From Eledone cirrhosa (taxonomy: Eukaryota), in the NCBI GenBank assembly GCA_964016885.1, contig CAXHJY010000514.1, positions 186,001-250,000 of the forward strand: a stretch of DNA of 64,000 nt. The letters run 5' to 3'. Below, one piece after another: positions 13,075 through 64,000 of this stretch. Position 1 is the stretch's first letter. Every line of letters starts with the position of its first letter. Both the position numbers and the translations under genes were made by a program. Under the pieces are notes generated by a model. It was not told the origin of the DNA and made no database searches. It was given only the letters and a program-made list of their open reading frames with translations.

Positions 13075-13440
13075 GTATATGTTATATCGAACATCAATAT
13101 TAATATTCGATTCATTTGCAAGCAAATGAACCAATTAAAGCTGTGCGTGCCGATGACCAATTGTCATCTGTTTGTTCAACACTGGCATCGGGGAACAATC
13201 AGTTTGTTTCCCGGTCATTACCCTTCATTAGGACTATTTCCCTCTCTGCTAATCTGTTGAACAGTTGAAAATATATAGTATTTTCTGAAGCATACATCGG
13301 CTGAGTAGCCTCATTTGAATACCAAGTGAGTTACGTCTAGCCTTGCCGAATATTAAAAATAAGATTATGATTTTATTTCTCGCTCTAGCACAGTTGATAC
13401 ATAAATGTAAGTATGTATACATACACGCATACATATATGC
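13075..13440 (-). mobile_element. Old divergent copy of hammerhead-bearing retrozyme-like family A
   Basis: Aligns with 57110-57350 (tttgttcaacactg...; cggctgagtagcctcatttgaataccaagtgagtt). It contains a degenerate hammerhead at 13191-13242 and is flanked by TA-rich microsatellite. Confidence 0.7.
13191..13242 (-). ncRNA. Degenerate type-I hammerhead ribozyme
   Basis: ATAGTC-CTAATGA-AGGGTAATGACCGG-GAAA-CAAACT-GATTGT. It occupies the same position as the intact ribozyme in other family A copies, but with different stem sequences. Confidence 0.55.
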
Positions 13441-27202: not shown

Positions 27203-27236
27203 GTGGTCTTTCCCATCTTTTCCACTCCATTTCAAC

Positions 27237-30200: not shown

Positions 30201-30600
30201 CGGGATAAACTCTAGAGGCATGGAGGTGCCGTCAGCCGGCATGTCCGAGATGCGCGCAGGGTGACGAAACCGTCCTTCACGCACTAGTCCAGTGTCCGAG
30301 CATTGCTGACTTGTGGGTTTATGTCGAACACCTGCTGTGGGTTTATGTCGAACACCTGCTGTCACGTGTAGGACGGATCCAGCTGAGTCCATCGTGAGGA
30401 TTGCCCCGCCTTCTTCCTTTAGCCGGGAAGGGCAGGCAGTTTTTATCTGTCTGGTGGCCATGGCGAAAGAGATAGTATGGTGGACACGTTTGAAAGGGAA
30501 AATCAGGATAGAGAGCATTTTGTTGAAAGATGGGTGAGAGAAGCAAGTATGGCTCTGAGTATGTGTCTGTAAATTAAAGGTGGAAAACTGGGAGAGGGCA
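27237..30600 (+). pseudogene. Tx1 ORF2 (APE endonuclease + reverse transcriptase), disrupted
   Basis: SKNARGL, ISET, VYAP, GDWN, SYLDR and YTDH (APE); KSPGLDG, RPITLLN, DQSKAFDRV, VRQGCPLS and YADD (RT); C-terminal CPRC...ETVLHALVQC. Several stops and frameshifts. Confidence 0.92.
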
Positions 30601-34711: not shown

Positions 34712-36316
34712 CAGTGCCCCGCAAAAGTTTACAACACATTAGGAAAAATGCGGTTTTAGGTATTTTTAATAAAGTTAGGGTAATGAAAATTTAACTACCG
34801 ATAGAACATATAATGAGGCATTTAATGATACAATCATAGTTTTAAAAAAATGACAAGGAAATAACTCATGAAGAAAAATCAATATTTTTATAACGCAAAA
34901 GTTTACAACACATTTATTAAATGATCTCTTAATATTTCGTAGCGTAACCTGTCTTGCTAATTACAGCCTGTAGGGCGTTTGGAGAAGCCTCCTACAAACT
35001 TCTTACATGTTTCTTGGCTTATATTTATCCATTCTTCACAACAAATTTTCTTTAGTTCAGGGATATTTTGTGGTTTCCTTTTTTGAATTGTCTCCACAAA
35101 TTTTCGATCGGGTTAAGATCTGGCAAGACTGACATGGTCATTTTAGAACATTTATTCCATTCGTACTTAACCAAGATTGTGTTAGCTTTGCAGTATGCTT
35201 TGGATTGTTATCTTGTTGAAAAAACCAACCTGGCTTTAAGCTGAGAGAATGTGCTCTTTGATGTAAATTCCTTTGGAAAATACCTCTATAATAAGTGCCA
35301 CCCATTCTTCCTTCTATTATTTCAATATTTCCTACTCCTGTGGCACTAAAGCAACCCCAGACCATGATTGATCCACCTCCAAATTTTACAGTTGGAATAG
35401 TATTCTTCACCGAATATTCAGTACCTTTTTTTCTCCAGACTTTTGCCACAGCATTTCGACCAAAATGTTCAATTTTTGTTTCGTCCGACTAAAGTACATC
35501 TTCCCAAAATGACGCAGATTTGATGAGATGCTCATGTGCAAAGTTTAATCGATGAAGAACGTGTTTCCTCGTAAGAAGTGGTGTTTTCCTTGGAGACCTC
35601 GAGAAGATATTATATCGATGTAGTGAACGACTAATTGTATCTGTGCTCACTTTTACTCCGCTTTCTTCTAGGTCATCCTGAAGATTTTTAAGAGTACACC
35701 GGGGTTCGTTGCCAACCTTTCTCGACAATAGCTGAGTTGCACGTTCCGTTATCTTTCTTGGACAACCAGAACTAATTAGAGGACAGATGGAATGATGAGA
35801 TTTCCAGTGACGAATTATTCTACCAACTGAACTCAATGGCACATTTAACTGACAAGATATCTTTCTATAACCAACACCATTTGTATGAAGGTCTACAATG
35901 CGTTTACAGAGGTCTTGATCAATCAGTTTATTTTTCCCCATATTGTCCATGTTTACAGGACGGTTGTCAATGTTTACAGGATGGTTGTCAGACAAATAAT
36001 GATGTAATATTTTTAATAGTCCTTAGAAGTTACCTTAAACCTAATCTAGAACATTCTACTGAATTTTAAATCTGAAAATTTAAGAATTTTCTTGAAAAAA
36101 GCGATAAATATAAAATGTGTTGTAAACTTTTGCGTTATAAAAATATTGATTTTTCTTCATGTGTTATTTCCTTGTTATTTTTTTTTAAATATGATTGTAT
36201 CAGTAAATGCCTCATTATATGTTCTATCAGTAGTTAAATTTTCATTACCCTAACTTTATTAAAAATACCTAAAACTGCATTTTTCCTAATGTGTTGTAAA
36301 CTTTTGCGGGGCACTG
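34712..36316 (-). mobile_element. Tc1-family DNA transposon, IR/DR type
   Basis: TA TSDs and CAGTG...CACTG ends. The ~204-bp TIRs (34712-34915 and 36113-36316) each carry two copies of gcaaaagtttacaacacatt. Confidence 0.95.
34929..35941 (-). pseudogene. Tc1 DD34E-type transposase, disrupted
   Basis: MGKNK paired-like HTH, SGCPRKIT, VL*SDETK, KFGGGSIMVWGCF, FQQDNNPKH, PDLNPIENLW and GYATKY*. Two W-to-stop changes plus frameshift(s). Confidence 0.92.
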
Positions 36317-37427: not shown

Positions 37428-37956
37428 ATACTTGGGGAGGGACATATTTGTGTAATATTGCCAGAATTAATAACAGAACACACTCACTGTTTGGTTGGTT
37501 TTCGCTTTTCGCTTCTGTGTCCTTTATATCGGTAATCTAATTTATTCGGTCCTCAATGTTGCCATTGACTGACCAACAGTCAAAAATAATACAGATACAA
37601 TATAGACACAAACACATATATATAGTTTATTAAATAAATAAATAAATATATAAACTGACTAAATAAAGATGGCGTAAACATACAATGTAACGGGAGGAAA
37701 CAATAGCACCACTGACGATGTTGCAGATGTGCAACGAAAGAACTTTGATAAACTATATATATGTGTTTGTGTCTATATTGTATCTGTATTATTTTGACCG
37801 TTGGTCAGTCAATGGCAACATTGAGGACCGAATACATTAGATTACCGATATAAAAGACACAGAATCGAAAAGCGAAAATCAACCAAACAGTGAGTGTGTT
37901 CTGTTATTAATTCTGACAATATTACACAAATATGACCCTCCCCAAGTATAACAATA
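37421..37956. mobile_element. Solo inverted pair of Penelope pseudo-LTRs
   Basis: ~210-bp imperfect inverted arms (37421-37634 and 37744-37956). The + part aligns with 63175-63500, the 3' end of the Penelope element. Confidence 0.88.
37708..37749 (+). ncRNA. Hammerhead ribozyme in Penelope pLTR
   Basis: ACCA-CTGACGA-T-GTTGCA(GATG)TGCAAC-GAAA-GAAC-TT-TGAT. Confidence 0.72.
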
Positions 37957-38011
37957 TTTGTTTCTGCACACGATTTCATATGAAAAACCTTGCAAAACTA
38001 ATTGATCGCCG

Positions 38012-38130: not shown

Positions 38131-38132
<2 letters not shown>

Positions 38133-38608
38133 ATGGAATAGAATGAAACGAAATTTCATTTCTCACTCTTAGTACGGCACATACTGAAATGTAAGTGCCG
38201 TACTAAGAGTGAGTAATTAAATTTCGTTTCATTCGATTCCATTTATCCTTTTCGGTGTGCCCGGCCGACTGAACTCACTCGATATGCAAATTAGGCTGCT
38301 CAGTCGTTAATATGCATATGGAAAGTATATACTTTCAGACGTTCAAGCATCTGGCACGAAGGTATACGATGCTGACAATAGCTAATAAGTTTGAAACTAG
38401 TACATCGTTCCTGTGTCAGTGTTGAACAAAAAGGTGATGTGATTGCCTAAACACCGTACGGCGCAATTCGGGCTGTTTGATTGTTTACAATCAAACAAAC
38501 CGAGCATTATAATATATATATATGTGTGCATGTATGTATATATATACATACTACTGTACGTCTGTATACATATATGTATGTACGTATACGTACATACATA
38601 CTTAGACA
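38131..38608 (+). mobile_element. Retrozyme-like family A copy with ~50-bp 5' inversion
   Basis: Hairpin ...tctcactcttagtacggcac / gtgccgtactaagagtgag..., then a body colinear with 57355-57915. No coding potential. Confidence 0.8.
38366..38408 (+). ncRNA. Hammerhead (family A), G8A
   Basis: ACGATG-CTGACAA-TAGCTAATAAGTTT-GAAA-CTAG-TA-CATCGT. Confidence 0.7.
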
Positions 38609-39914: not shown

Positions 39915-42900
39915 CTCTTTGTTTCGTCCGCGGATGGCTAACATAACCCTATCTCCTCCCGCCCCCCACCACCCCCACCCTCCAAACGCAACCCAAAACT
40001 TCAGAGTTGGTACCATAAATGTAGGCACCCTAAAGGGTCGCGCTAACAAGGTTGTAGAAATGCTTGAACGTAAGGAGGTCGATGTTTGTTGTATTCAAGA
40101 GACCAGGTGGAGGGGTGGGTCTGCTAGATTCATTGAGGGTAAAAAACGATGTTATAAGCTTTTCTGGGTGGGAAACGACGATGGGCTGGGTGAAGTAGGA
40201 ATCATGGTAGCAGAAAAGTGGGCAGATAAGATAATAGACGTAAATAGAGTGAACGACAGAATAGTTAAAATAAGACTTGTCCTCAATAGAACTACGGTGA
40301 CAGTAATATCTGCGTACGCACCCCAATCCGGACTGCCCGGCACTATAAAAGACAGATTCTATGAGACACTGTTGCTAACTACCTCCCAAATATCTGACAG
40401 TGACTATATAATTATTGCAGGCGACCTAAATGGTCACGTTGGACAACATTGTGACGGCTACGACGAAATCCATGGAGGCTATGGGTTTGGTACTAGAAAT
40501 GAGGAAGGCTCCAGAATCCTGGAATACTGTGATGCAAATAACCTAACTATCTGTAACACTAACTTCAAAAAACGTGACAATCACCTGATCACCTATAGAT
40601 CCGGGGAACACACAAGCCAGGTAGATTATATCCTTACCAGAAGACGTGACAGAGTGTCTGTTGTAAACACTAAATCCCTCCCCCATGAAGAATGCACCTC
40701 CCAACATAGACTGATAATTAGCGACCTCATAGTCAGGACGAGACGTACTCGACAGCAGAAGAGGACTATCCTCAGGAGGAAAATATGGAAACTAAAGGAC
40801 CCCACAGCCAGAAATAAATTTCAAAGCATATTACTTGATGCTTTCGACAGTAAGGAAGAGCATCTAGAATCGGACAATATAGAGTGACAGTGGGAATTTC
40901 TGAAAGCAAACCTGCTGTTGGCGACAGACGAAGTCTGTGGCTGGAGCAGGCCTGTAGGCAGGAGGAGAGTAACATGGTGGTGGAACAGTAGGGTGGAGGG
41001 GTCAATTAAGGCCAAAAAGCAGGCTTGGAAAGTATGGCGGGATGGGGGAAGTAGAGTAGACTATCAAGTGGCCAGGAGGGAAGCTAGGAGAGAAGTGTAC
41101 TTAGCAAGAAGGGAAGCTGAGGAAAGAAAGTTCAAGCATGTTCTACAACGCGATGACCAAAAACGTGAGGTGTTCAGGATTGCCAGGCAATGCGTCAAGG
41201 AAAACCGTGATATTGTCGGGGAGAAGTGTGTACTTAACGATGATGGCATACTTGCCATCACCGACACTGATAAGAAGGTAGCTTGGAAGTGTCACTATGA
41301 AAGGCTACTAAATGAGGAGAATAAATGGGAGAAAGACAGTCTCCCCCATATCGACCCGATAGAGGGACCAGCAGTGTTAGTCGAGGGGAGTATAATAAGT
41401 AAGGCAATCAAGGATATGAAGACTGGTAAGGCGGCTGGGCCTTCGGAAATAGTTGCTGAGATGCTGAAGGCATCTGGCACGGTGGGACACACCATGGTCA
41501 CCCGCATAGTTAACCAAGTCGTACAGAATGGGGTTGTTCCGAAGGACTGGCATAGCAGCATCATCGTTAACTGTTATAAGGGTAAAGGAGACGCCCTAGA
41601 TAGGAGTAACTATAGAGGCATTAAATTAATCGACCAGGTCATGAAGGTCACGGAAAAAGTAATAGCGCAACTAATCAGAGAGAGAATTGATCTAGATGAA
41701 ATGCAGTTCGGGTTTGTGTCAGGCAAAAGCACCACAGACGCTCTTTTCATAGTACGACAACTACAGGAGAAGTACCTAGCTAAAGGTAAACCCCTCTACT
41801 TAGCTTTTGTCGACCTGGAGAAAGCCTTCGACAGAGTCCCCCGCTCCATTATCTGGTGGGCTCTTAGAAAACTAGGCGTTGACGAATGGCTTGTGAGGGC
41901 TATACAAGCCATGTATAAAGAAACAGTCAGCAAGGTTAGAATTAACAACGAATATAGTGAAGAGTTTTGCGTAAAAGTTGGCGTCCATCAGGGCTCTGTT
42001 CTCAGCCCCCTACTATTTATTATTGCCCTTCAGGCTATAACAGAGGAGTTCAAGACAGGCTGCCCATGGGAACTCCTATACGCAGACGACCTGACACTCA
42101 TAGCGGAATCAATGGCCGAGCTAGAGAAGAAATTCCAAACATGGAAGCACGGCCTAGAGTCAAAAGGACTTAAAATTAACCTGGCTAAGACCAAAGTTCT
42201 AGTTTGTAGGAAAGAAAACAAGGCGGCGGTCCCTTCTGGGAAATGGTCGTGCTCGGTATGTAGGAAAGGCGTAGGTAGAAACTCCATCTTATGTCCTAAA
42301 TGCAAAGTATGGGTGCATAAAAGATGTAGTGGGATCACAGGTAAGCTAACTAAGAACATAGACTTTACACGTGGCCGGTGTTCTGGTGCAATAAGTAGCA
42401 GCAAGTGCCCACAAATACTAGCTCTTTCAATTGCGCAGAGGGTTCTATAGAAATAGTGGACAGCTTCCGTTACCTGGGCGATAAAATCAGCAGTGGGGGA
42501 GGGTGCTCTGAAAGTACTGTAGCTAGAGTCAGAACTGGTTGGAAAAAGTTCAGAGAGCTTATACCACTATTAGCTGCTAAAGGGTTCTCCCTAAAAATGA
42601 AAGGCAGGTTGTACGATGCCTGCATACGAACAGCAATGTTGCATGGTAGTGAGACCTGGGCATTGTGTGCAGAGGATATACGCAGACTAGAGAGGAACGA
42701 AGCTTGCATGCTCCGCTGGATGTGTAACAGTAATATACGTGTACGGCAAAGCATAAACGAACTAAGGAAAAAATTAGAGATAAGAGGGATCAGATGTTGT
42801 TTACTCGAGAGAAGGCTGCGTTGGTATGGACACGTGATGCGCATGAAAGTCGATAGCTGTATTACAAAGTGCAGGGCAATAAAGATAGACGGTAGCCACG

Positions 42901-43408
42901 GAATAGGCAGACCTAGAAAATCATGGGATGAGCTGATAAACTCCGACCTCACACACTTATACCTCTCCAAGACAATGTCACTGGACCGTGACCTTTGGCG
43001 GTACTCAGTAACAGAGAAGACCCGCCTTGCCAGTAGGCATCTCTAACAAAATACACCCCGTCCCGCCACCACCCCCACCCCATCCACACCACCCCGTTCT
43101 ATGTAAAGTTATGTTGGTGCCGCGCCATCCAGGCCGAAACAAATGAGATCGTGTAGGTGTCACGACAAAAAAACACACAGTCCACGCTGTAATGTGGCCG
43201 TGTAGGCAACACGGTAAAAACCTCCCAGACCCACACTGTAAATGTGGTTGGTGTTAGGAAGGGCATCCAACTGTAGAAAACCTGCCAGACAGTCCTATGC
43301 GAGCAAGACAATCACTCTTGCCTCAAGTGGGACTACCCCCGTCCAAACCCATGCAAGCGTGGAACACGGACGTTAAACGTTGATGATGATGATGATGATG
43401 ATGATGAT
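39915..43408 (+). mobile_element. Near full-length RTE-clade LINE
   Basis: Single APE-RT ORF and a 3'UTR ending ggacgttaaacgtt(gat)n, inserted in TA-rich microsatellite. Confidence 0.95.
39934..43046 (+). pseudogene. RTE ORF (APE + RT + Cys/His finger); one stop (40885-87) and one frameshift (~42410)
   Basis: TINVGTL, IQETRW, SAYAPQ, GDLNGH, SQVDY; NYRGIKL, DLEKAFD, GVHQGSVLSP, LYADD; CSVC...CPKC...HKRC. Confidence 0.93.
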
Positions 43409-43653
43409 ATATATATATATATATATGTATATGTATATATATTTATTGTTATACTTTGGGAGGGTCATGTTGCCAATAACAAATTGAGAAACGAAATATA
43501 TATATATATATATATATGTACGTATATGTATATATATATATGTATATGTATATATTTATATGTATATGTATATATATGCGTATATGTATATATATATGTA
43601 TATGCAGTGGCGTAGCTAGGGTAAATGGCGCCCAGGGCAAGTATATGTAGATA

Positions 43654-44039: not shown

Positions 44040-44798
44040 GGAGGCACATGGCTTAGTGGTTAGAGCATTGGCCTTGCAATCTAAAGATTGTGAGTTCAAT
44101 TCTCAGGTGAGTTCAATTCTCAGGTGATTTGTTGTGTCCTTGAGCAAGAAACTTTATTTCACATTGCTCCAGTTTACTCAGTTGTTTACTCGAGAGAAGA
44201 CTACGTTGGTATGGTCACGTGATGCGCATGAAAGACGACAGCTGTATAAAAAAAGTGCAGGGCGATAAAAATAGACGGTAGCCACGTGTAGGCAGACCCA
44301 GAAAAACCTGGGACGACTTGATAAATTCCGACCTCACGCACTTACCACTCTCCAAGACAATGTCACTGGACCGAGATCTTTGGCGCTACACAGTAATACA
44401 GAAGACACGCTTTGCCTAAGGACAAACCGAAACCTACAGTCAGTAGGCATCGCTAACAAAAATACACCTCTGTCCCACTACCCCCACCCCATCCAAACCA
44501 CCCCCTTCAATGTGAAGTTATGTTGGTACCACAACATCCAGTCCGAAACAAATCAGGTCGTGTAGGTGTCACGACAAAAAACACACAGTCCACGCTGTAA
44601 TGTGGCCGTGTAGGTAACACGGTAAAAACCTCCCAGTCCACACTGTAAACGCGGTTGGTGTTAGGAAGGGCATCCAGTCGTAGAAAACCCGCCAGACAGT
44701 CCTATACGAGCAGGAAAACCAATCTTTCCTCAAGTGGGAAAACTCCCGTCCAAACCCATGAAAGCGTGGAAGATGGACGTTAAACGATGATGATGATG

Positions 44799-49587: not shown

Positions 49588-49861
49588 CATATACGGATAA
49601 AATGAAACGAAATTTCATTTCTCACTCTTGGTACGGCTGTTACTTAAATATAAGTATGTATACGAACATACATATATGTATACAGACGTACAGTAGTATG
49701 TATATATATATATACATACATGCACATATATATATATATGTACGTATGGATTCACCGAACATTTATTATAATGCTCGGTGTGTTTGTAAACAAACATCCC
49801 GAATTAAGCCGTACAGTGTCTAGCAAACATCGTTTCTCATTTGTTGAACACTGACAAAGGA

Positions 49862-49904
49862 ACGCTGTACTAGTTTCAAGCGTATTAGCTATCGTCAGCA
49901 ACGT
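49862..49904 (-). ncRNA. Hammerhead ribozyme (family A), intact core
   Basis: ACGTTG-CTGACGA-TAGCTAATACGCTT-GAAA-CTAG-TA-CAGCGT. Confidence 0.85.
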
Positions 49905-50070
49905 ATACCTTCCTGCCAGATGATTGAACGTCTGAATGTATATACTTTCCTTATGCATATTAACGGCTGAGCAGCCTAATTTGCATATCGAGTGAGTTAA
50001 CCGGCCGGGACCACCGAAAACGATAAATGGAAAAAATGAAACGAAGTTCAATCATCTGGCAGGAAGGTAT

Positions 50071-50113
50071 ACGTTGCTGACGATAGCTAATAAGCTTGAA
50101 ACTAGTACAGCGT
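50071..50113 (+). ncRNA. Hammerhead ribozyme (family A), intact core
   Basis: ACGTTG-CTGACGA-T-AGCT(AATA)AGCT-T-GAAA-CTAG-TA-CAGCGT. Confidence 0.88.
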
Positions 50114-50464
50114 TCCTTTGTCAGCGTTGAACAAATGAGCAACGATGGTTGCTAGACAATGTACGGCTTAAATCGGGATGTTTGTTTACAAACACAACGA
50201 TTGTTATAATAAATGTTCGGTGAATCCATACGTACATATATATATGTGTGCATGTATGTATATATATATATATACATACCACTGTACGTCTGTATACATA
50301 TATGTATGTACGTATACATACTTATATTTAAGTAACAGCCGTACTAAGAGTGAGAAATGTAATTTCGTTTCATTTTTTCCGTTTACGGATGGCTTCCAAA
50401 AATAATGGTTGCATTTTAATAGGGTACGTCAAAGCTTATTTGTAAAACTGTTATATATTGTATT

Positions 50465-50518
50465 TTGTCTGATGAAGGCATACCATAATTTAATTTGGTA
50501 TCCCTTAAATATGTATAA
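50465..50518 (+). ncRNA. Degenerate hammerhead
   Basis: TTGT-CTGATGA-AGGCATACCA(10 nt)TGGTATCCCT-TAAA-TATGT-ATAA; G12 is lost. AATAAA follows. Confidence 0.5.
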
Positions 50519-50579
50519 TGAAATAAATATGGTTTTATAAATATAGTTTCCATTTATTAATATCGTATATATATATAAT

Positions 50580-51120
50580 ATTAGGGATACTATTTATGGT
50601 TATGTATATATTAAAACGTTTTATAGTTATGTATATTTTAAACCCTAAACAGTGAAGGTCAGTAATTTATTACTACCGTGTTACCAGTAAGATAAATAGC
50701 TCAATGTAATAAAAGCAGTTGTTCTACAGAGCAGTTATATAGAATTCAACAAGAATAAAAGCTATGTTCAAAGCATTTATTTATTCACAATCAAAATCAC
50801 AATCAAAATCAAAATCAAAATTTAAAACAAATCAAAATTAAAATACATTCGGCAGATAACACAGATAATGCAAGAGGATAGTTTGATAGTCAGGTCTAGT
50901 AGGTAGTGTATGCGTTAGTTACACGTGGAACATGCAAGTGTGTCTCATTTGTATACTATTATTGTGTGGCAGGGTGTTACACGTAATGCAAGTGGGTAAG
51001 GAGGTTAATTATGTGTACAAACATTGAAAAATGCTCCGAAGACTCCAAGCCTAGGTTTGGATGAAACAATTGTAAGTGAATAAATGCTTTGTACATAGCT
51101 TTGATTCTTGGTAATTCTCT
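50580..51120. mobile_element. Non-coding pLTR-like element, family B, inverted arrangement
   Basis: 50580-50788 aligns with 60051-60260, and 50830-50990 with 60480-60620. 50745-50788 is the reverse complement of 51076-51120. Confidence 0.75.
51032..51078 (+). ncRNA. Hammerhead (family B), CCGAAGA core
   Basis: TGCT-CCGAAGA-C-TCCAAGC(CTAG)GTTTGGA-T-GAAA-CAATTG-TA-AGTG. Confidence 0.7.
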
Positions 51121-51216
51121 CTCTCTATATATATATTATATATATATATATATTTGTATATTATTTATATATATATTATATATATATTTATATATATTAT
51201 ATATATATATATATAT

Positions 51217-51248
<32 letters not shown>

Positions 51249-51256
51249 ATATATAT

Positions 51257-51289
<33 letters not shown>

Positions 51290-51344
51290 GTATATATATA
51301 TATATATATAATATATATAAATATATATATAATATATATATATT

Positions 51345-51377
<33 letters not shown>

Positions 51378-51404
51378 TAAATATATATATAATATATATA
51401 TATT

Positions 51405-51459
<55 letters not shown>

Positions 51460-51642
51460 ATTATATATATTATATATATATATATATATTATATAATTTA
51501 TATATATATTATATATATTATATATATATATATATTATATAATTTATATATATATATATATATTATATAATTTATATATATATATAATATATTATATATA
51601 TTATATATATATATATATATATTATATATATTATATATATAT

Positions 51643-52162
51643 GTGTTTTAAAACCTTATTTATACCAATCTTAAATTCAAAATCTCCGTTTATCTCTATG
51701 ATTTTAAATTACTATTTTCATGTTTTTAATATATCTCAATCTGTTGGAAGGACCTTTTCCTAAAAACTAAACTTCCCCTTCTAGTATTGTTATTAACTAA
51801 TTATTCTAGAACCTTCTTGCATCTCGCTCGCAACCTTTGTAAACACTTTGCTCTTCTTTCACCCCCCCCCCCTCCCCGCCTGATCGCCTGATCGCAAGTA
51901 TAAAATAATTATTGCTGGCTTCCAACGACAGAATTTATATTTCTAATCTATTTTAAAAACGATCTGTCGATTTTGAGAATGTAAGCAAAACCTGTCTTCT
52001 CTTCATTTGCGTAGTCTTCTCATTTAAGCAGTGTTTTAAAATCTTATTTATACCACTCTAAAATTCAAATTCTCCATTTATCTCTCTGATTTTAAATTAC
52101 TATTTTCATGTTTTTAATATGTCTCAATCTGTTGGACCTTTCCTAAACACTAAACTACTCCT
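51643..52162. repeat. ~135-bp direct repeats, period 388 bp
   Basis: gtgttttaaaaccttatttatacc...aaactaaact occurs at 51643-51779 and again at 52031-52162. Confidence 0.85.
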
Positions 52163-52403
52163 AAAGTCACCCATTTCCCGCTCTTCCACCCCCATTGCTA
52201 TATGGTCCAATCATAACTCAGCGGCTTTAGTAAGTTCTCTAACAAATCACTATAGCAAAGTTATCACCCCGGTTACTACTCCTTAAGTTTAGACCTGTTT
52301 GATGGGTCGACTTCGGATATTTGAAAAGTCTAAGCACTCAATGACAATGTCACAGATAAAGATATATTCACCTCCCGCTGCAAGACGAGAATACAAGGAC
52401 CCC

Positions 52404-55400
52404 CTCTTTGTTTCAGACACAGATGGCCAACAAAATCCCGTCTCCTACACCCCTCCCTGCCCCTCCAACCCATCCATCCCACCCTCTCAACTTCAGAGTT
52501 GGTACCATAAACGTAGGCATATTGAAAGGTCGCTCAAATGAGGTTGTAGAGATGCTTGACCGTAAAGAAGTTGATGTTTGTTGTATTCAAGAGACTAGGT
52601 GGAGAGGGGGGTCTGCCAGACTCATCGTGGATAAAAAACGATGCTATAAACTTTTCTGGGTGGGAAATGACAATGGACAGGGTGGTGTAAGAATTATGTT
52701 AGCTGAAACATGGATATATAAGGTAATGACAGAATAATTGAATTAAGACTAGTTCTAAATAGAACTACTGTGACAATAATATCTGCTCATGCACCCCAAT
52801 CTGGTCTACCTGATGTTATAAAGGACAGGTTCTGTGAGATGCTAATGCACACTACCTCCCAAATAACCAACAGTGACTACTTAATTATTGCTGGCGATCT
52901 AAACGGTCACGTTGGACAACATAGTGATGGATATGATGGAATCCATAGAGGCTATGAGGTTGGAAATAGAAATGAGGAGGGCTTCAGAATCGTGGAATTC
53001 TGTGACGCAAATAGCCTCACTATCTGTAACATAAACTTCAAAAAATGTGAAAAACACTTGATCATCTATAGATCAGAGGAACACGCCAGCCAGATAGATT
53101 ATATCCTTACTAGAAGACGGGACAAAATGTCTGTTGTAAACACTAAATCCCTTCCCCGTGGAGAATGCACCTCCCAACATAGTCTAGTAGTTAGTGACCT
53201 CATAGTCAGGAATAGACGTACTCGGCGACAGAGGAGGCCTACCTTGAGGAGAAGAATATGGAAGTTGAAGGACCCCATAGCCAGTGACAAATTTAAAAGC
53301 CTATTACTTGATCCCTTTGACAATAAGGAAGAGAAATTAGAGACGTGCAATATAGAGGAACAGTGGCAATTCTCGAAGGTGAACCTGCTGAAAGCAACGG
53401 ATGAAATCTGTTGCTGGAGCAGACATATTGGCAGGAGGAGAGTAACTTGGTGGTGGAACAGTAAGGTGGAAGAGGCAATCAAGGCCAAAAAGCAGGCTTG
53501 GAAAGTATGGCATGATGGGGGAAGTAGAGAGCACTATCAAGTGGCCAGGAGAGTTGCTAGGAGACAAGTGTACCTTGCAAAAAGGGTAGCAGAGGATAGA
53601 AAGTTCAAGCATGTTCTATAACGTGAGGACCAAAAACGTGAGCTGTTCAGGATTGCTAGACAATGTGTCAAGGAAAGCTGGGATATTGTCGGGGAGAAGT
53701 GTGTCCGTAATGATAATGGTGTACTTGCGCTCACTGATACTGATAAGAAGATAGCCTGGAAGTGTCACTACGAGAGACTATTAAATGAGGATAATAAATG
53801 GGAAAAAGATAGTCTGCCCCAAATCGATCCAATAGAAGGACCAGCGGTGCAAGTTAAAGGTAGTATAATAATTAAGGCAATCAATGATATGAAGACAGGC
53901 AAGGCAGCTGGGCCTTCGGAGATAGTTGCTGAGATGTTGAAGGCATCTGGTATGGTGGGACATTCTATGGTCACCCGTATAGTTAACCAAGTAATACAGA
54001 ATGGGGACATACCGAAAGACTGGCGTAGCAGCATCTTCATTAACTGCTACAAGGGTAAAGGGGATGCTCTAGATAGGGGAAACTATAGAGGCATTAAGAT
54101 AGTTGACCAGGTCATGAATGTCACAGAAAGAGTTATAGCGCAACTAATCAGAGAGCGAATTGATCTAGATGAAATGCAGTTTGGGTTTGTGTCAGGTAAA
54201 AGTACCACAGACGTTCTTTTCCTTGTACGACAACTACAAGAGAAGTACCTAGCTAAAAGTAAACCCCTCTACTTAGCCTTTGTAGACCTGGAGAAAGCTT
54301 TTGACAGAGTCCCCGCTCCATTATCTAGTGGGCTCTCAGAAAACTAGGTGTAGATGAATGGCTTGTGAGAGCTATACAAGCTATGTATAATGAAATAGTC
54401 AGCAAGGTTAGAATTAACAATGAATAATGTGAAGAATTTAGTGTAAAAGTTGGCGTCCATCAAGGCTCTGTCCTTAGCTACCTCCTATTTATTATTGCCC
54501 TTCAGGATATAACAGAGGAGTTCAAGACCGGCTGCCCATGGGAACTCCTATACGCAGATGACCTAACGCTCATAGCTGAAACAATGGCTGAACTAGGGAA
54601 GAAATTCCAAACATGGAAGCATGGCCTAGAATCAAAAGGCCTTAAAGTTAACTTGTCTGAGACTAAAGTTCTAGTTTGTAGAAAGGAAAATAGGGCACAA
54701 GTAACCTCAAGGAAATGGCCATGCTCAGTGTGTAGAAAAGGAGTAGGCAGAAATTTCATTTTATGTCCCAAATGTAAAGTATGGGTACATAAAAGATGTA
54801 GTGGGATCACAGGTAAACTATCTAAGAACGTAGACTTTATATGTGGCCGATGCTCAGGTGCAATATGTAGCAAGTGTCCAAAGGATACTAGCTCCTTCTA
54901 TTGCCCAGATGGTTCTATAGAAAAAGTAGACACTTTCCGTTACCTGGGTGACAAAATAAGCAGTGGTGGAGGATGTTCTGAAAGTACAGTAGCCAGAGTC
55001 AGAATGGGATGGAAAAAGTTCAGAGAGCTTATACCGCTGTTGGCCACAAAAGGTTTCTCTCTAAAAATGAAAGGCAGATTATATGATGCCTGTATACGAA
55101 CAGCAGTGCTACATGACAGTGAGAGAAAGGCATTACGTGCAGAGGACATACGTAGACTGGAAAGGAACGAAGCATGCATACTCCGTTGGATGTGTAATAG
55201 TAATATACGTGAACGGCGAAGTATAAATTAACTATGTGAGAAATTAGGAATAAGAGGGATCAGATGCTGTTTACTTGAGAGAAGACTACGTTAGTATGGT
55301 CAGGTGATACGAATGAAAGACGACAACTGTATAAAAAAGTGCAGAGCAATCAAAATTGATGGTAGTTACAGAGTAGGTAGACCCAGAAAAACCTCGGTTG

Positions 55401-55914
55401 ATCTGATAAATTCCGACCTCACACACTTACATCTCTCTAAGACAATGTCTCTGGACCGAGATCTTTGGCGCTACGCAGTAATACAGAAGACCCGCCTTGC
55501 CTATGTACAAAGCGAAACCTACAGTCAGTAGGCACCTCTTAACCAAATATACACCCCAATCCACTACCCCTACCCTATCCTCCCACTCCCACCAACAGCA
55601 CGAGATAATGAGATCGAGATCATGTAGGTGTCACGACAAAAAACACACACAGTCCACGCTGTAATGTGGTCGTGTAGGTAACACGGTAAAAATTCCCAGT
55701 TCCAAACTGTAAATGTGGTTGGTGTTAACAAGGGCATCTAGTCGTAGAAAACCTGCCAGATAGTCCTATATGAGCGAGACACGGTCAACCGACCAGCCTT
55801 GCCTCCAGTAGGACAATGCTAGCGTGGAAAATGCCTCCAGTAGGACAATGCTAGCGTCTAACCCATGCTAGCGTGGAAAATGGGCGTTAATCGAAGATGA
55901 TGATGATGATGATG
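52404..55914 (+). mobile_element. Second near full-length RTE LINE (more decayed)
   Basis: Colinear with 39915-43408 from ctctttgtttc through the ATG at 52423 to the (GAT)n tail. Multiple stops and frameshifts. Confidence 0.95.
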
Positions 55915-55928
55915 GTATATATATATAT

Positions 55929-55968
<40 letters not shown>

Positions 55969-56037
55969 TATATATATATATATATAATTATATATATATA
56001 TAAATATATATAATTATATATATATATAATTATATAT

Positions 56038-56081
<44 letters not shown>

Positions 56082-56085
<4 letters not shown>

Positions 56086-56849
56086 AAGGATGAGTATTTT
56101 AGACTTTATTTTATCATGAGTTAAGGCTCTATTGATTTTTCCCTGGATTTCACTAAATTCTGTGGATGAATCTATATCCTGATTCTCTTTGAGATGAGTT
56201 TGAATTATTTTTCCCACATCTCACGTTAACTATTTTTCCCATTTTGACGCTATAGTCACTTATATATTATGGTATACTGTTGGCTTTTCGCTACAATGTT
56301 TTCTATACCTTTCATTTATATATTTATACTCGGATTTCTTTCCTAGAGTGGTTAAATTATTTGTGACTAATTCCGGTATTTTTTTTATAAAAAACCGCTA
56401 TAACATTGCTTTTTGCTGAACTCCTTATTGTAGAGTTTTTTTCGGAATGTTTTTTGACTGTTGTTTCTTGTAAACAAACATTCGTCTCATACTGACGTCA
56501 CCAGACCTGTCTTTCCAGATGTGCATTTTATTTTTCATAATCACGCACGATGGTTAACTAGCCTGTTTTAAATTAACTTTTTGGCATATTAATCTGTGAG
56601 AATCTTGGTTATCGAGTTGAGCTCTGCTGAGGATCGAATTCCAACCGTGACCATCTCCACTGAAAGTTTTCGTGAAATAGTCCTTAAGATACAGAGCATT
56701 TAAAGTTTTTCCAAATTGAAGGATGAGTATTTTAGACTTTATTTTATCATGAGTTAAGGCTCTATTGATTTTTCCCATTTTGACGCTATAGTCACTTATA
56801 TATTATGGAATACTGTTGGCTTTTCGCTAAAATATTTTCTATACCTTTC

Positions 56850-56853
<4 letters not shown>
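56082..56853 (+). mobile_element. Non-coding element with terminal direct repeats and hammerhead-like motif (family C)
   Basis: 56082-56322 is repeated, with a ~95-bp deletion, at 56715-56853; period 633 bp. Bounded by (TA)n. Confidence 0.72.
56621..56697 (+). ncRNA. Hammerhead-like motif with long stem II
   Basis: GCTCTG-CTGAGGA-TCGAA...TTCGT-GAAA-TAGTCCTTAAGA-TA-CAGAGC, with a perfect 6-bp stem I. Confidence 0.6.
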
Positions 56854-56916
<63 letters not shown>

Positions 56917-56987
56917 TATATAAGTATGTATGTATACGTACATACATATATGTATACAGACGTACAGTAGCATGCATATATATATAC

Positions 56988-57040
<53 letters not shown>

Positions 57041-57202
57041 ATATATACAAACAGGTACACATACATATATGTACGTATCAGTTTAGCGGACGCTTATTAT
57101 AACGCCCGCTTTGTTCGTTTGTAAACAAACCGAACAGGCTGAATTTATGCCGTACGGTGTTAAGGCAACCACGTCACCTTTTTGTTCAACACTGACACAG
57201 GA

Positions 57203-57245
57203 AAGATGTACTAGTTTCAAGCTTGTTAGCTATCATCAGCACCGT
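57203..57245 (-). ncRNA. Hammerhead ribozyme (family A), intact core
   Basis: ACGGTG-CTGATGA-TAGCTAACAAGCTT-GAAA-CTAG-TA-CATCTT. Confidence 0.85.
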
Positions 57246-57539
57246 ATACCCGTCTGCCAGATGGTTTAACGTTCGAAAGTATATACTTTCCTTATGAAAA
57301 TTAACGGCTGAGCAGCCTAATTTGCATATCGAGTGAGTTCGGCCAGGCCTACCATACATATATACTTACATTTAAGTAAGTGCCGTACTAAGAGTGAGAA
57401 ATGAAATTTGGTTTCCATTTAATTACAACTTATCGTTCTCGGTACGCCTGGCCGAACTCACTCGATATGCAAATTAGCCGTTAATTTTCATAAGGAAAGT
57501 ATATACTTTCGAACGTTAAACCATCTTGCAGAAGGGTAT

Positions 57540-57582
57540 ACGGTGCTGATGATAGCTAACAAGCTTGAAACTAGTACATCGT
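57540..57582 (+). ncRNA. Hammerhead ribozyme (family A), intact core
   Basis: ACGGTG-CTGATGA-T-AGCT(AACA)AGCT-T-GAAA-CTAG-TA-CATCGT. Confidence 0.88.
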
Positions 57583-57730
57583 TCCTGTGTCAGTGTTGAA
57601 CAAAAAGGTGACGTGGTTGCCTTAACACGGTACGGCATAAATTCAGGCTGTTCAGTTTGTTTACAAACGAACAAAGCGGGCGTTATAATAAACGTCCGCT
57701 AAACTGATACGTACATATATGTATGTGTAC

Positions 57731-57799
<69 letters not shown>

Positions 57800-57949
57800 T
57801 GCTACTGTACGTCTGTATACATATATGTATGTACGTATACATACATACTTACATTTAAGTAAGTGCCGTACTAAGAGTGAGAAATGTAATTTCGTTTTCA
57901 TTTTATCACAACTTATATAATTATATATAATTTTATATATATATATATA

Positions 57950-60630: not shown

Positions 60631-61167
60631 AGCAGGCAATCAATAGTATCATGTGGGCCGTATTGTTAAATCATTTTTTCGCATGCACCTGTACGATATA
60701 CAATCCCGAATGTAGAGAAACACCAGAATATCAAAAATATCAAACATATTATAAAACATATTATAAAAGAGGCAAAACAGCACCACTGTCTTCGCACACA
60801 CCACCACTCACACAATCCATGAAATGCAATATATAGACGACAGGTCTATCACACATTCCACGATGATTAGGTGTCTGGAGAACCAAGTTGTAAACCATAT
60901 CTTGTCGTTTCTTAATTTGATTAATAGATCAGGTTGTTTTAGTTGTGTGAGATGACATTGTATTATATTCCGGAAGTGTGTGTGTGACTAAGGGGAGTTA
61001 ATGCGTAAGGGGAGGTAACTAGCTGATTTTCATAGTTAAATTTATTATCCTAACTTACATTAATGGTGTTTCAAATGAGTCCCTATCATATGAGGTTATA
61101 ACCAATTTCTAGATTATGTTACTTACCTATAGGTTACAGTGTTGTCTATTAAGCTAATATAGCTAGT

Positions 61168-62987
61168 AACTACAGGATCTCCTACTTCCTATCAATGGAT
61201 ATACGCCCCATAATCAAGATGTCTCCGGATGTATGTGACAGTACAGAGGACCTCCTAAGCAGAAGCAGTGAGTGCAACAAAAACAGGAACCTATCCAACT
61301 GCATAATAGGCAGCATGGATGTGGTGTCACTGTACCCATCTATTAACATTGATTTTGCTGTGGAAAAATGTGTGGAGATGATCATTGAGAGTGAGGTGGA
61401 GTTCGGCGACGTCGTCACAGACGAACTGGGCCTCCTACTTAGACTTACCTACGACACTGACTACCTGGAGAGCCATGACCTTAGACGTTTCTGCCCTAGT
61501 AGACCCATAAGAGGTAGACCCCCCACCATAACCTCAATGGCAAAAAAGACTCCCATGGGAAGGTGGATTGGGTGGACCAAAGCTATACGGACCCCCAAAA
61601 CAATAATCAGGTAAGAAAAATGGTCGCACATGCAATAGGGGCTAGTATCAAAACTACCCTCAAGGGCCTCATATTTAAGTTCAACGAGAAGATCTACACC
61701 CAAAATGAAGGAGCAGCCATTGGCGTCAGCATAGCTGGTGATGTTGCCAAACTTTTCATGGTATGGTGGGAAAGGAGACTTAAATATCTCCTTAATGAGA
61801 GCTCCATATACCTCATCATGTACTCTCGTTATGTAGACGATATCAATATAGTTATAAGAACATCCCCACTAGAGAGCACTAACAAGTTTGATTTAGAACG
61901 TAGCACAATGGAAAACATCCAGCAGATAGCTAATTCCATACACCTGAGTATAACTGTAACTATCGACTTCCCTTCCAAACACCCTAACAATAGACTACCT
62001 GTATTAGACACAGAACTCTGGATTAACACTATAGCCGAGAGGGCACAAATTCTCCACTCACACTATGCTAAACCCATGGCCTCCAAATACCTGATATTCA
62101 AAATCTCAGCAATGTCCAGTAGTGCTAAGTTTAATATTCTGATCGCAGATTTGGTACGAGTGATGAAGAATGTGTCCCGCATGTGCGACCCAACAGAAAT
62201 GGAAAGACTCATCCAACACTTCATCAACCGCATGCAGTTCTCTGGCTACAACCAAAGAGACAGAGTCAGAGTATACGAAGGAGCCATGGAAAAGTATAAG
62301 ACCCTCATAGAGCTGGACATGAAAGGAATTTGCCCATTATACAGGAGCAAATCATGGAATAGCTTAGATAGGGCTAGACATAAGATAGGGAAAGCCACCT
62401 CATGGTACGACAACCAGAGATACCAGAGTGCCATGTTTGTGGACGCTACCCCTGGAGGGAAATTAGCTAACCAGTGTAGAAAGGCCCTGAGAAAGACCCA
62501 CTTAAAAATTAAGGTGGTAGAAAAGCCAGGAACCACCATAAATTCCCTGATCAGCAAAACCTACCCTTTAAAGAAAACCCACTGTACCAATAGGAAATGT
62601 ATCATATGTAAGATAAACCCCCGGATAAACTGTAAAACTAGAAACGTAGTCTATAGCATAAGATGTACAGACGGTACCTGCAGAAACAGGACAACAACAT
62701 ACATAGGTGAGACAGCGCGTAGCATAGGTGAAAGGATAGAGCAACACTGGGGGGAACTAAAAGGACGAAAAAACGGGTCAGTACTATACGAACATGCCAG
62801 ACAACAACATGGCGGTAACATAGACAACATAGAAATTAGAATAATATTTAAACATAGAAATGACCCAGCAGATAGGCAAATCAGAGAGGCCAGTGAAATA
62901 GAACTTAGAAGACCAAGACTAAACAGAAAGAATGAATGGAATAACAACAACACCCAAACAAACAACACTGACCTAAGAGAAGTATAA
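61168..62987 (+). pseudogene. Penelope RT + GIY-YIG endonuclease (one frameshift ~61600, N-terminus missing)
   Basis: GSMDVVSLYPSI, YTQNEGAAIG, RYVDD, LPVLDT; Cys cluster CTNRKCIIC; NVVYSIRC...TYIGETARSIGERIEQH...RQIREA...LN. Confidence 0.93.
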
Positions 62988-63253
62988 ATATGTAAATAAA
63001 ATAAAATAAAAAATAAATGAATAAATAAATAAATAAATACATACACAAGCACAATAACAACAAACACATAAACACACATTAGTCACCCAAACACGAACAC
63101 ACATCACACATCAAACAAAATCCTATACACACACAAACGCACGCGCAAAGAAAATAAAATAAAATAAACAAACAAGCAAATAAATAAATAAATATATAGA
63201 CCGACTGAATAAAAATGGCGTAGCTATACAATTCAACAGTAGGAAACAATAGC

Positions 63254-63295
63254 ACCACTGACGTTGTTGCAGATGTGCAAAGAAAGGTTTATGAT
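63254..63295 (+). ncRNA. Hammerhead in Penelope pLTR (mutated copy)
   Basis: ACCA-CTGACGT-TGTTGCA(GATG)TGCAAA-GAAA-GGTT-TA-TGAT, positionally equivalent to 37708-37749. Confidence 0.6.
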
Positions 63296-63526
63296 AAACT
63301 ATATATATGTGTTTGTGTCTATATTGTATCTGTATTATTTTTGACCGTCGGTCAGTCAATGGCAACATTGAGGACCGAGTATATTAGATTACCGATATAA
63401 AAGACACAGAAGCGAAAAGCGATAACCAACCAAACAGTGAGTGTGTTCTGTTATTAATTCTGGCAATATTACACAAATATGACCCTCCCCAAGTATAATA
63501 ATATATATATATATATATAATTATAC

Positions 63527-63733: not shown

Positions 63734-64000
63734 TAAAGAATGCAAATGCAAAAGATATTGTTGACAATTCGTCTTTTATCTTAGATTTATTTAAATGTCC
63801 TTAATTTTCGAGATAATATCTCTTCTTCGGGGGGAAGTAAAGCGGTTAAACGAGTGTTCTAAACAAGCTATTTAGAACACTGGTTTAACCACTTTACTTC
63901 TTTCCGAAGAAGAGATATTATCTCGAAAATTAAGGACATTTAAATTAATCTAAGGTAAAAGACTAATTGTCAACAATATCTTTTGCGTTTGCATTCTTTA
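63734..64000. repeat. Long imperfect palindrome (arms >=130 bp, 7-nt loop) with two divergent hammerheads
   Basis: Centre gtgttctaaa-caagcta-tttagaacac. The motif CCGAAGA-A-GAGA(TATTA)TCTC-GAAA-AT-TA-AGGA occurs on + (63900-63936) and on - (63798-63834). The palindrome runs off the window end. Confidence 0.88.

What the first reader, a model, noticed from the sequence alone, without database searches (positions are those of the whole stretch)
49593..57915. Non-coding hammerhead-bearing retroelement family (retrozyme-like family A) at four loci
Seen: a ~450-490 bp unit with no real ORF occurs at 13075-13440(-), 38131-38608(+), 49593-50385(-/+) and 56922-57915(-/+), always among TA microsatellites. 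It carries a minimal type-I hammerhead (CTGAYGA...GAAA-CTAG-TA), intact in four of six copies. The plus copy at 57355-57915 is terminally redundant by ~60 bp, and the minus copy at 49593-50045 also repeats its end. Established: non-autonomous retrozymes and Penelope pLTRs use such ribozymes to cut monomers from multimeric transcripts, and the monomers can circularise. Inference: this is a cephalopod-type retrozyme family, copied more than once round a circular or tandem RNA template by a Penelope RT. I cannot tell from here whether it has been described.
Basis: partly seen in the sequence, partly recalled or inferred. Interest (0 to 1): 0.9.

Follow-up and report, generated by a model that had tools for sequence, protein, structure and literature searches.

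The report
Ribozyme-bearing parasite of Penelope retrotransposons
A 430-480-base non-coding repeat with a conserved hammerhead-ribozyme fold sits at tens of thousands of places in this (likely octopus) genome, inserted in the pattern Penelope-like retrotransposons leave; it is likely a new, still-active family of the known 'retrozyme' RNA parasites, and a predicted small-nuclear-RNA-type promoter just in front of the ribozyme would explain why it needs to cut itself and form circles.

Summary
In detail: six copies at four loci, hammerhead core intact in four. The family is huge (38,572 exact core matches, control 0) and young subfamilies have identical copies. The hammerhead is kept by compensatory changes across subfamilies. 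Insertions have two fixed 3' ends (with or without a 55-70-nt tail) running into (TA)n, variable 5' truncation, partial tandems and back-to-back arms. Exactly one arm carries the tail in 35 of 39 such pairs. This is the Penelope-like-element (PLE) signature. The unit was not the terminal repeat of any autonomous PLE sampled, and many PLE families are present. New here: an octamer plus TATA-like box upstream of the ribozyme, matching this genome's U6 promoters in motif though with 4-6 nt shorter spacing. Best reading: a non-LTR retrozyme moved in trans by a PLE enzyme, likely through a self-cut monomer circle. Cleavage, transcription, the circle and the helper's identity are untested; uncut multimeric RNA as template is not excluded. 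The class is known; no cephalopod report was found.

The parts
57355..57916 (+). Subfamily A1 arm, 1.16 units: tail module - promoter-like block - hammerhead rod - hairpins - internal (TA)n - tail, ending in (TA)n
57466..57505 (+). Octamer block (57466-57477) and TATA-like box (57500-57505); this copy has a 9-bp deletion between them
57515..57601 (+). Hammerhead (57540-57582, predicted cut after 57576) inside an extended, interrupted helix I
57857..57916 (+). Optional 3' tail between the two fixed 3' ends; also present internally at about 57375-57433
56922..57352 (-). A1 inverted arm without tail; octamer 57317-57328, TATA-like box 57280-57285, hammerhead 57205-57243 (helix I 4 bp)
49593..50050 (-). 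Subfamily A2 arm with tail; octamer 49976-49987, TATA-like box 49939-49944, hammerhead 49862-49904
50042..50385 (+). A2 arm, 5'-truncated 65 nt before the cut site (no promoter block); hammerhead 50071-50113, predicted cut after 50107; tailed
38132..38196 (-). Short inverted arm made of the tail module
38191..38608 (+). A2-like arm without tail; octamer 38283-38294; hammerhead core broken (38372-38397)
13075..13440 (-). Older subfamily A3 copy; octamer variant 13310-13321; hammerhead broken (13206-13231)
61153..63500 (+). Not part of the unit: 5'-truncated autonomous PLE ('W', RT plus C-terminal GIY-YIG-type domain, recognised from recalled motifs and homologues); one candidate helper, with a different terminal repeat

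Best explanation
This is a non-coding repeat family with a conserved hammerhead fold and Penelope-type insertion ends, likely a non-LTR retrozyme that borrows the reverse transcriptase/endonuclease of an autonomous Penelope-like element and likely travels as a self-cut monomer circle. Steps. (1) Inferred: an snRNA-type promoter (octamer 88 nt and TATA-like box about 46 nt upstream of the ribozyme core) starts transcription some 10-16 nt before the core; being external, it is not in the RNA unless transcription runs on into the next unit. (2) Predicted: in loci with two or more units, paired hammerheads (palindromic helix III) cut unit-length RNA whose ends are held together by the extended helix I, and a host ligase would close it. 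(3) Inferred from the ends seen and from in-vitro PLE work: a PLE protein nicks (TA)n and primes cDNA at one of two fixed sites 55-70 nt apart; priming from both sides of the break gives back-to-back arms, one tailed and one not. (4) Seen: copies run through the cut site and the promoter block, often for 1.2-4 units, which a linear cut monomer could not template; going round a circle would restore promoter-before-ribozyme order. (5) Seen: some insertions are later enlarged into 20-50-unit arrays showing DNA-level duplication.
For: Hammerhead covariation over 34 distinct sequences: 97.3% of cells paired, 8 of 12 pairs with double changes, helix III palindrome kept through a double change (counts lean on three related subfamilies). 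Extended helix I conserved. Cut-to-cut monomers fold at z -8.7 to -16.7 in 6 of 6 (partly due to the internal TA run). 94 of 104 outer ends followed by TA repeats. One tail per back-to-back pair in 23 of 27 after hand correction plus 12 of 12 resolved further pairs. The same features are described for PLEs and shown by autonomous W here. 49 5' ends spread from -146 to +94 around the cut, none at it. Units of one insertion share variants: A1 59 variants in all covering units against 9 in some; L303 shares 17 across 7 units. Octamer intact in 128 of 150 units; the same 12-mer (one with a single change) lies at -76 to -78 of three U6 promoter types; 8 of 9 occurrences in 400 kb of sample lie in hammerhead repeats, each with a TATA-like box 43-44 nt on. 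No family-A core within 1.2 kb downstream of a PLE ORF on the same strand in any locus held; no homology to W's terminal repeat or to 60 other PLE loci except one opposite-strand insertion and one 35-nt match.
Against: No cleavage, transcript or circle has been shown. In A1-A3 the first pair of helix II is U.U or A.A, not the conserved G-C (Cervera 2014), which may lower activity; A5/A6 have G-C. Li 2026 saw cleavage in 1 of 9 predicted retrozymes; Frangieh 2024 found cleavage unnecessary for insertion in vitro. Only 14 of 104 loci hold two core-intact hammerheads in tandem. Pairwise alignments of the unit with 7 snRNA promoters are mostly not significant and controls score as well; octamer-TATA spacing is 41-43 nt against 46-50 in U6; sense-strand T4-T6 runs would hinder Pol III read-through. 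The helper is not identified and PLE sampling was not exhaustive.
Confidence: 0.6

Rival explanations
1. Same non-autonomous, PLE-mobilised family, but the template is an uncut multimeric transcript of tandem arrays, primed internally at the tail; the hammerhead does another job (trimming the 5' leader, protein binding) and circles are absent or incidental.
For: In the anole PLE, unprocessed RNA was the dominant substrate and no reads ended at the cut. Homogeneous 20-50-unit arrays exist that could be sources. Imperfect helix II in A1-A3.
Against: It needs DNA-level amplification of a variant monomer to found each homogeneous subfamily, and gives no reason for the palindromic helix III and the end-joining rod to be kept by compensatory change.
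Confidence: 0.27
2. The copies are 5'-truncated terminal repeats (pLTRs), or internal deletion products, of an autonomous PLE that was not sampled.
For: All integration marks are those of PLEs; PLE pLTRs carry hammerheads; other hammerheads here do sit in pLTRs (L257 and, degenerate, W). Li 2026 derive frog retrozymes from pLTRs. An ancient origin of this kind remains likely.
Against: Upstream of a unit there is another unit, an inverted arm or (TA)n, not an ORF. The relic-ORF search found only an unrelated repeat protein. At least five subfamilies of different ages (A1, A2, A3, A5, A6) are all ORF-less in the loci seen.
Confidence: 0.1
3. A DNA-level repeat: MITE with terminal inverted repeats, Helitron-type non-autonomous element, or satellite.
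For: Back-to-back insertions look like long inverted repeats; hairpins, an internal microsatellite and long arrays with local duplications are present.
Against: No fixed 5' end, arms of unequal and variable length, many single-arm copies (35 loci with one outer end), two alternative 3' ends, and RNA-level covariation on one strand.
Confidence: 0.03

Closest known systems
Metazoan non-LTR retrozymes (Cervera & de la Pena 2020, PMC7229834; Li, Clavereau & Pollet 2026, 10.64898/2026.07.22.740005)
   Same: Non-coding unit of a few hundred bases, GC under 45%, type I hammerhead in each unit, tandem and dispersed copies, highly self-paired monomer, coexisting PLEs.
   Different: Slightly longer than the 150-450 bp quoted in 2020; most loci are 1-4-unit insertions with explicit PLE ends; no target-site duplication readable in (TA)n; no parent pLTR found; circles not shown; no cephalopod in the parts of either study read.
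Endonuclease-bearing Penelope-like elements and their pLTR hammerheads (Cervera 2014, PMC4209133; Craig 2021, 10.1101/2021.04.23.441226; Frangieh 2024, PMC11167929)
   Same: 5' truncation, partial tandems, inverted 5' arm, optional tail usually on one end, (TA)n targeting, hammerhead with palindromic helix III.
   Different: No ORF; tail 55-70 nt rather than 30-40; both 3' ends carry 2-4 nt matching the (TA)n target; helix I longer and helix II shorter than in typical PLE min-HHRs; carries an octamer block absent within 200 nt upstream of W's hammerhead (0 of 63).
Newt satellite 2
   Same: Tandem hammerhead repeat with internally looped helix I extension and dimeric cleavage (passages in PMC6155905), transcribed from an snRNA-type promoter (citing sentence and title in PMC2220036).
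   Different: No sequence relationship tested; the primary papers were not held; polymerase type for family A is undetermined.

Membership tests
non-LTR retrozyme | Type I hammerhead motif in each unit, conserved as RNA structure | tested here: met
non-LTR retrozyme | Short non-coding unit, no LTR | tested here: met
   units 422-507 nt; frames not conserved; PBS/PPT not searched for
non-LTR retrozyme | [quoted passage not shown] | tested here: met
   14 of 104 loci; arrays of 20, 31 and 50 units; not met at the four loci of this window
non-LTR retrozyme | Self-cleavage of the transcript | not testable with these tools
   needs in-vitro transcription
non-LTR retrozyme | Accumulation as circular RNA | not testable with these tools
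   no raw RNA reads were available to lay
non-LTR retrozyme | Highly self-paired monomer | tested here: met
   6 of 6 monomers, 67-75% paired, z below -8; the internal TA run inflates this
PLE-mobilised element | Fixed 3' ends with optional tail, usually on one end only | tested here: met
   35 of 39 back-to-back pairs
PLE-mobilised element | Variable 5' truncation, partial tandems, inverted 5' arm, microsatellite target | tested here: met
autonomous PLE / its pLTR | Unit lies directly behind an RT-GIY-YIG ORF | tested here: not met
   sampling of PLE families incomplete
MITE / TIR transposon | Fixed two ends with terminal inverted repeats and target duplication | tested here: not met
snRNA-type promoter-driven repeat (newt satellite 2-like) | Octamer and proximal/TATA elements upstream of the ribozyme, in register with host snRNA promoters | tested here: inconclusive
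   octamer 12-mer shared with U6 and TATA-like box at fixed spacing; spacing differs by 4-6 nt; pairwise alignments not significant; no start-site data

The most novel reading that the evidence does not exclude
A long-lived, still-jumping lineage of circular-RNA parasites that has no coding parent left, carries its own captured snRNA-type external promoter, and keeps a hammerhead because only self-cutting and circularisation lets it copy that promoter back in front of itself; it is inserted by a non-homologous Penelope enzyme priming both sides of a break at two different RNA sites. This would be genomic proof that retrozyme circles are PLE templates and give the ribozyme a definite job.
Probability: 0.4. 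Interest if true: 0.75.

Novelty: new member of a known kind. Interest (0 to 1): 0.55.

Why it matters
That PLE enzymes mobilise animal retrozymes through circles was proposed but not shown, and the role of PLE hammerheads is called unclear. This genome holds a very young retrozyme subfamily (identical copies) and very young intact PLE families, so template, helper and promoter can be tested directly. It is also a major unannotated component of the genome (at least 38,572 intact cores; roughly 60,000 loci by sampling), and two cephalopod repeat papers contain no mention of ribozymes in their main text.

Tried and rejected
Rfam: no hammerhead family at threshold. Pfam: no family for the window's PLE ORF pieces. 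Expression: no RNA holder listed. Laying contigs of 4 runs showed the family in X1 and X6, nothing laid in X4 and X5, and no joints or ends; contigs cannot show circles. Relic-ORF idea (the tail translates like a PLE N-terminus): frame not conserved, no hit among 112 PLE homologues (whose query ran on into microsatellite), one unrelated repeat protein among 1.84 billion; unsupported. Helper search: W, a canonical Penelope-type query and GIY-YIG loci gave many PLE families, none with this unit as pLTR; a tail-like motif in one family (L228 type) is too short to count. Long arrays as proof of rolling-circle RT: rejected, since they carry periodic and mosaic shared variants. A recurrent A>T site in the 50-unit array as an RT mark of a modified base: rejected, absent from the other A5 units examined and from the array's own inverted arm. 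Fold-back origin of the inverted arm: disfavoured, as the untailed arm can reach further 5' than the tailed one (L263, L267, L270). Variants shared by mirror units of two arms (L011, L089, L270) could mean a heterogeneous multimeric template or later conversion within the palindrome: undecided. The first tail classifier was faulty (it matched the tail hairpin on both strands) and was replaced; there L009 was misfiled and L025 counted twice, so 25 of 28 became 23 of 27. The pattern had a wrong spacer and is not used. Pairwise promoter alignments were not significant as a set. Six of 49 5' ends cluster at -62 to -65 from the cut; too close to the TATA-like box for a start site, probably a structural pause. 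Earlier-findings look-ups by place and by sequence were empty.
Full report
Observation. The four loci are as described. A descriptor scan finds four intact type I hammerheads, with cuts predicted after 50107 and 57576 on the + strand; the copies at 38131 and 13075 have broken cores. Three of the four loci are back-to-back pairs. Rfam does not recognise the motif at threshold. The host is a 3.0-Gb animal genome; the best protein hit of the neighbouring retrotransposon is an Octopus vulgaris protein at 69%, so an octopus is inferred.

Size and age. Forty evenly spaced 10-kb samples held 8 clusters (12 units) of subfamilies A1-A3 in 400 kb, which scales to roughly 60,000 loci (my Poisson range about 26,000-118,000; samples came from 13 large contigs). 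An exact pattern of the family's core gives 38,572 matches, control 0. Subfamilies differ in age: best-matching A1 copies lie 0.7% from the majority letters, A2 3.0%, A3 7.6% (biased to good matches). A sister subfamily A5 (469 bp), found in a flank, has identical copies at many places; A6 (466 bp) is close to it.

Ribozyme. In 34 distinct core sequences (chosen from 63 pattern-matching ones), helix I, helix II and the palindromic helix III are kept with double changes: 97.3% of cells paired, 8 of 12 pairs with changes on both sides, far above slid controls. These counts rest on a few subfamily-level events, and the sequences were selected for an intact core. RNAalifold on 23 copies extends helix I by three further helices, which would hold the two ends of a cut monomer together. 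Six cut-to-cut monomers fold far more stably than shuffles. Caveat: A1-A3 have U.U or A.A where canonical hammerheads have G-C at the base of helix II; A5/A6 have G-C.

Insertion anatomy. In 30 A1 and 30 A2 loci arrays end at one of two fixed points 55-70 nt apart and run into (TA)n (94 of 104 ends). 5' ends are variable: 49 measured, none at the cut (main arms were selected for spanning it, so only second arms and sample loci inform this). In back-to-back insertions exactly one arm has the tail in 23 of 27 after hand correction (binomial P about 2e-4 by my arithmetic) and in 12 of 12 further resolved pairs read by eye (L272 left out as unresolved). Craig 2021 describes this anatomy for PLEs (passages), and Frangieh 2024 shows that the tail is the stretch between two internal RT start sites of a protein that cuts and extends both strands (main text). 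The autonomous PLE W in this window shows the same two kinds of end. This is the strongest result: the family is inserted by PLE-type machinery.

Independence from a parent. W is abundant (45,133 first-look candidates) and young, has its own degenerate hammerhead and a tail inside its ORF start, and its terminal repeat is unrelated to family A. Sixty loci of other PLE families showed no family-A terminal repeat. No family-A core lay within 1.2 kb behind a PLE ORF on the same strand in any locus held. Sampling was by best hits and is not exhaustive; the helper remains unidentified.

Promoter-like block. Across subfamilies the unpaired region before the ribozyme keeps an octamer (motif name recalled) and a TATA-like box: octamer intact in 128 of 150 units, 88 nt before the core in A1/A2 (100 in A5/A6), TATA-like box 41-43 nt further on. 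The genome's own U6 genes have the same 12-mer at -76 and -77 (one change at -78 in a third type) and TATA at -30. A3 also resembles the U2 proximal region by eye. In 400 kb, 8 of 9 occurrences of the 12-mer lie in family A or in a more distant hammerhead family G with the same spacing. Against: pairwise alignments with 7 promoters are mostly non-significant and controls reach similar P values, although 19 of 42 best alignments fall in register with a start 7-25 nt before the core (pairs not independent); the spacing differs from U6; and T runs argue against easy Pol III read-through. Newt satellite 2 is a precedent for an snRNA-type promoter driving a hammerhead repeat (citing sentence only).

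Mechanism. If the promoter is external, a one-unit transcript lacks it, and a linear monomer cut at the ribozyme could template only about 275-320 nt from the tailed end. Most copies instead include the promoter block and often more than one unit, and units in one insertion share variants. The template must therefore be a circle or an uncut multimer. I favour the circle (0.6), because it explains why the dimer-type ribozyme and the end-joining rod are conserved and why subfamilies are homogeneous. The multimer route (0.27) is not excluded: long arrays exist and have grown by DNA-level duplication. Shown: structure conservation, ends, copy number, absence of an adjoining ORF in the loci seen. 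Inferred: promoter function, cleavage, circle, helper.

Prior art. Cervera 2020 (passages and section 14) defined non-LTR retrozymes, with circles in coral, mussel and axolotl and PLEs as candidate helpers. Li 2026 (parts 1-3 of 5) linked them to PLE pLTRs in 35 species without molluscs; its supplements are closed. Cervera 2014 (parts 1-2 of 4) described PLE hammerheads. Searches listed no cephalopod retrozyme paper and none joining 'retrozyme', 'promoter' and 'octamer'; two cephalopod repeat papers (passages) have no 'ribozyme' or 'hammerhead' in the main text. Their repeat libraries, Dfam and Repbase were not seen and may hold the family under another label.

Verdict. Real; a new member of a known kind, unusually large, active and mechanistically legible. 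Interest 0.55; most novel reading probability 0.4, interest 0.75.

Noticed in passing
window 61153-63500; solo terminal repeat 37632-38010: Autonomous PLE family W: about 4.1-kb unit, intact ORFs above 1,000 codons elsewhere, identical copies and tandems, short first coding stretch followed by a probable intron, degenerate hammerhead in its terminal repeat.
   Followed up: partly
window 50463-50530; L132, L134, L146, L151, L160, L162, L169: At least six other hammerhead-bearing repeat families; 25 descriptor hits in 400 kb would scale to about 190,000 motifs genome-wide. One is the terminal repeat of an autonomous PLE (L257); the others were not traced.
   Followed up: partly
L139:9380-10000: Distant hammerhead family G, also back-to-back, with the same octamer and TATA-like spacing as family A.
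   Followed up: partly
G000:C1:127,664,000-127,689,000 (L292-L297): One A5 insertion with 50 tandem units plus a 3-unit inverted arm; near-identical units, one array-specific recurrent variant.
   Followed up: yes
G000:C1:14,044,000-14,051,000 (L298-L300): A5 array with two-unit periodicity in which every second hammerhead palindrome is broken; fits a dimer circle or DNA duplication.
   Followed up: partly
L303 (G000:C1:5,538,001-5,546,000): About 25 bp of flank appears after both arms in inverted orientation, suggesting copying of target DNA during insertion.
   Followed up: no
window 63734-64000 and L211/L224: Palindrome made of another PLE family's terminal repeat with a variant hammerhead.
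   Followed up: no
window 39915-43575 and 52404-56083; 25746-30205; 35141-36022; 44042-44115: Two LINE copies (RT plus PHD finger), an L1/Tx1-like element (endonuclease domain; family label from recall), a Tc1-like transposase remnant (label from recall) and tRNA-derived SINE heads.
   Followed up: no
L310-L344, L330-L341: U6 promoters here are compact (octamer at about -77, TATA at -30); U2 promoters examined lack an octamer in the upstream stretch scanned and have an AT-rich proximal block from -58.
   Followed up: partly
L084, L006, L065: Family A arms abut W or W-like PLE fragments directly or across a short TA run; nested insertion or template switching not distinguished.
   Followed up: partly
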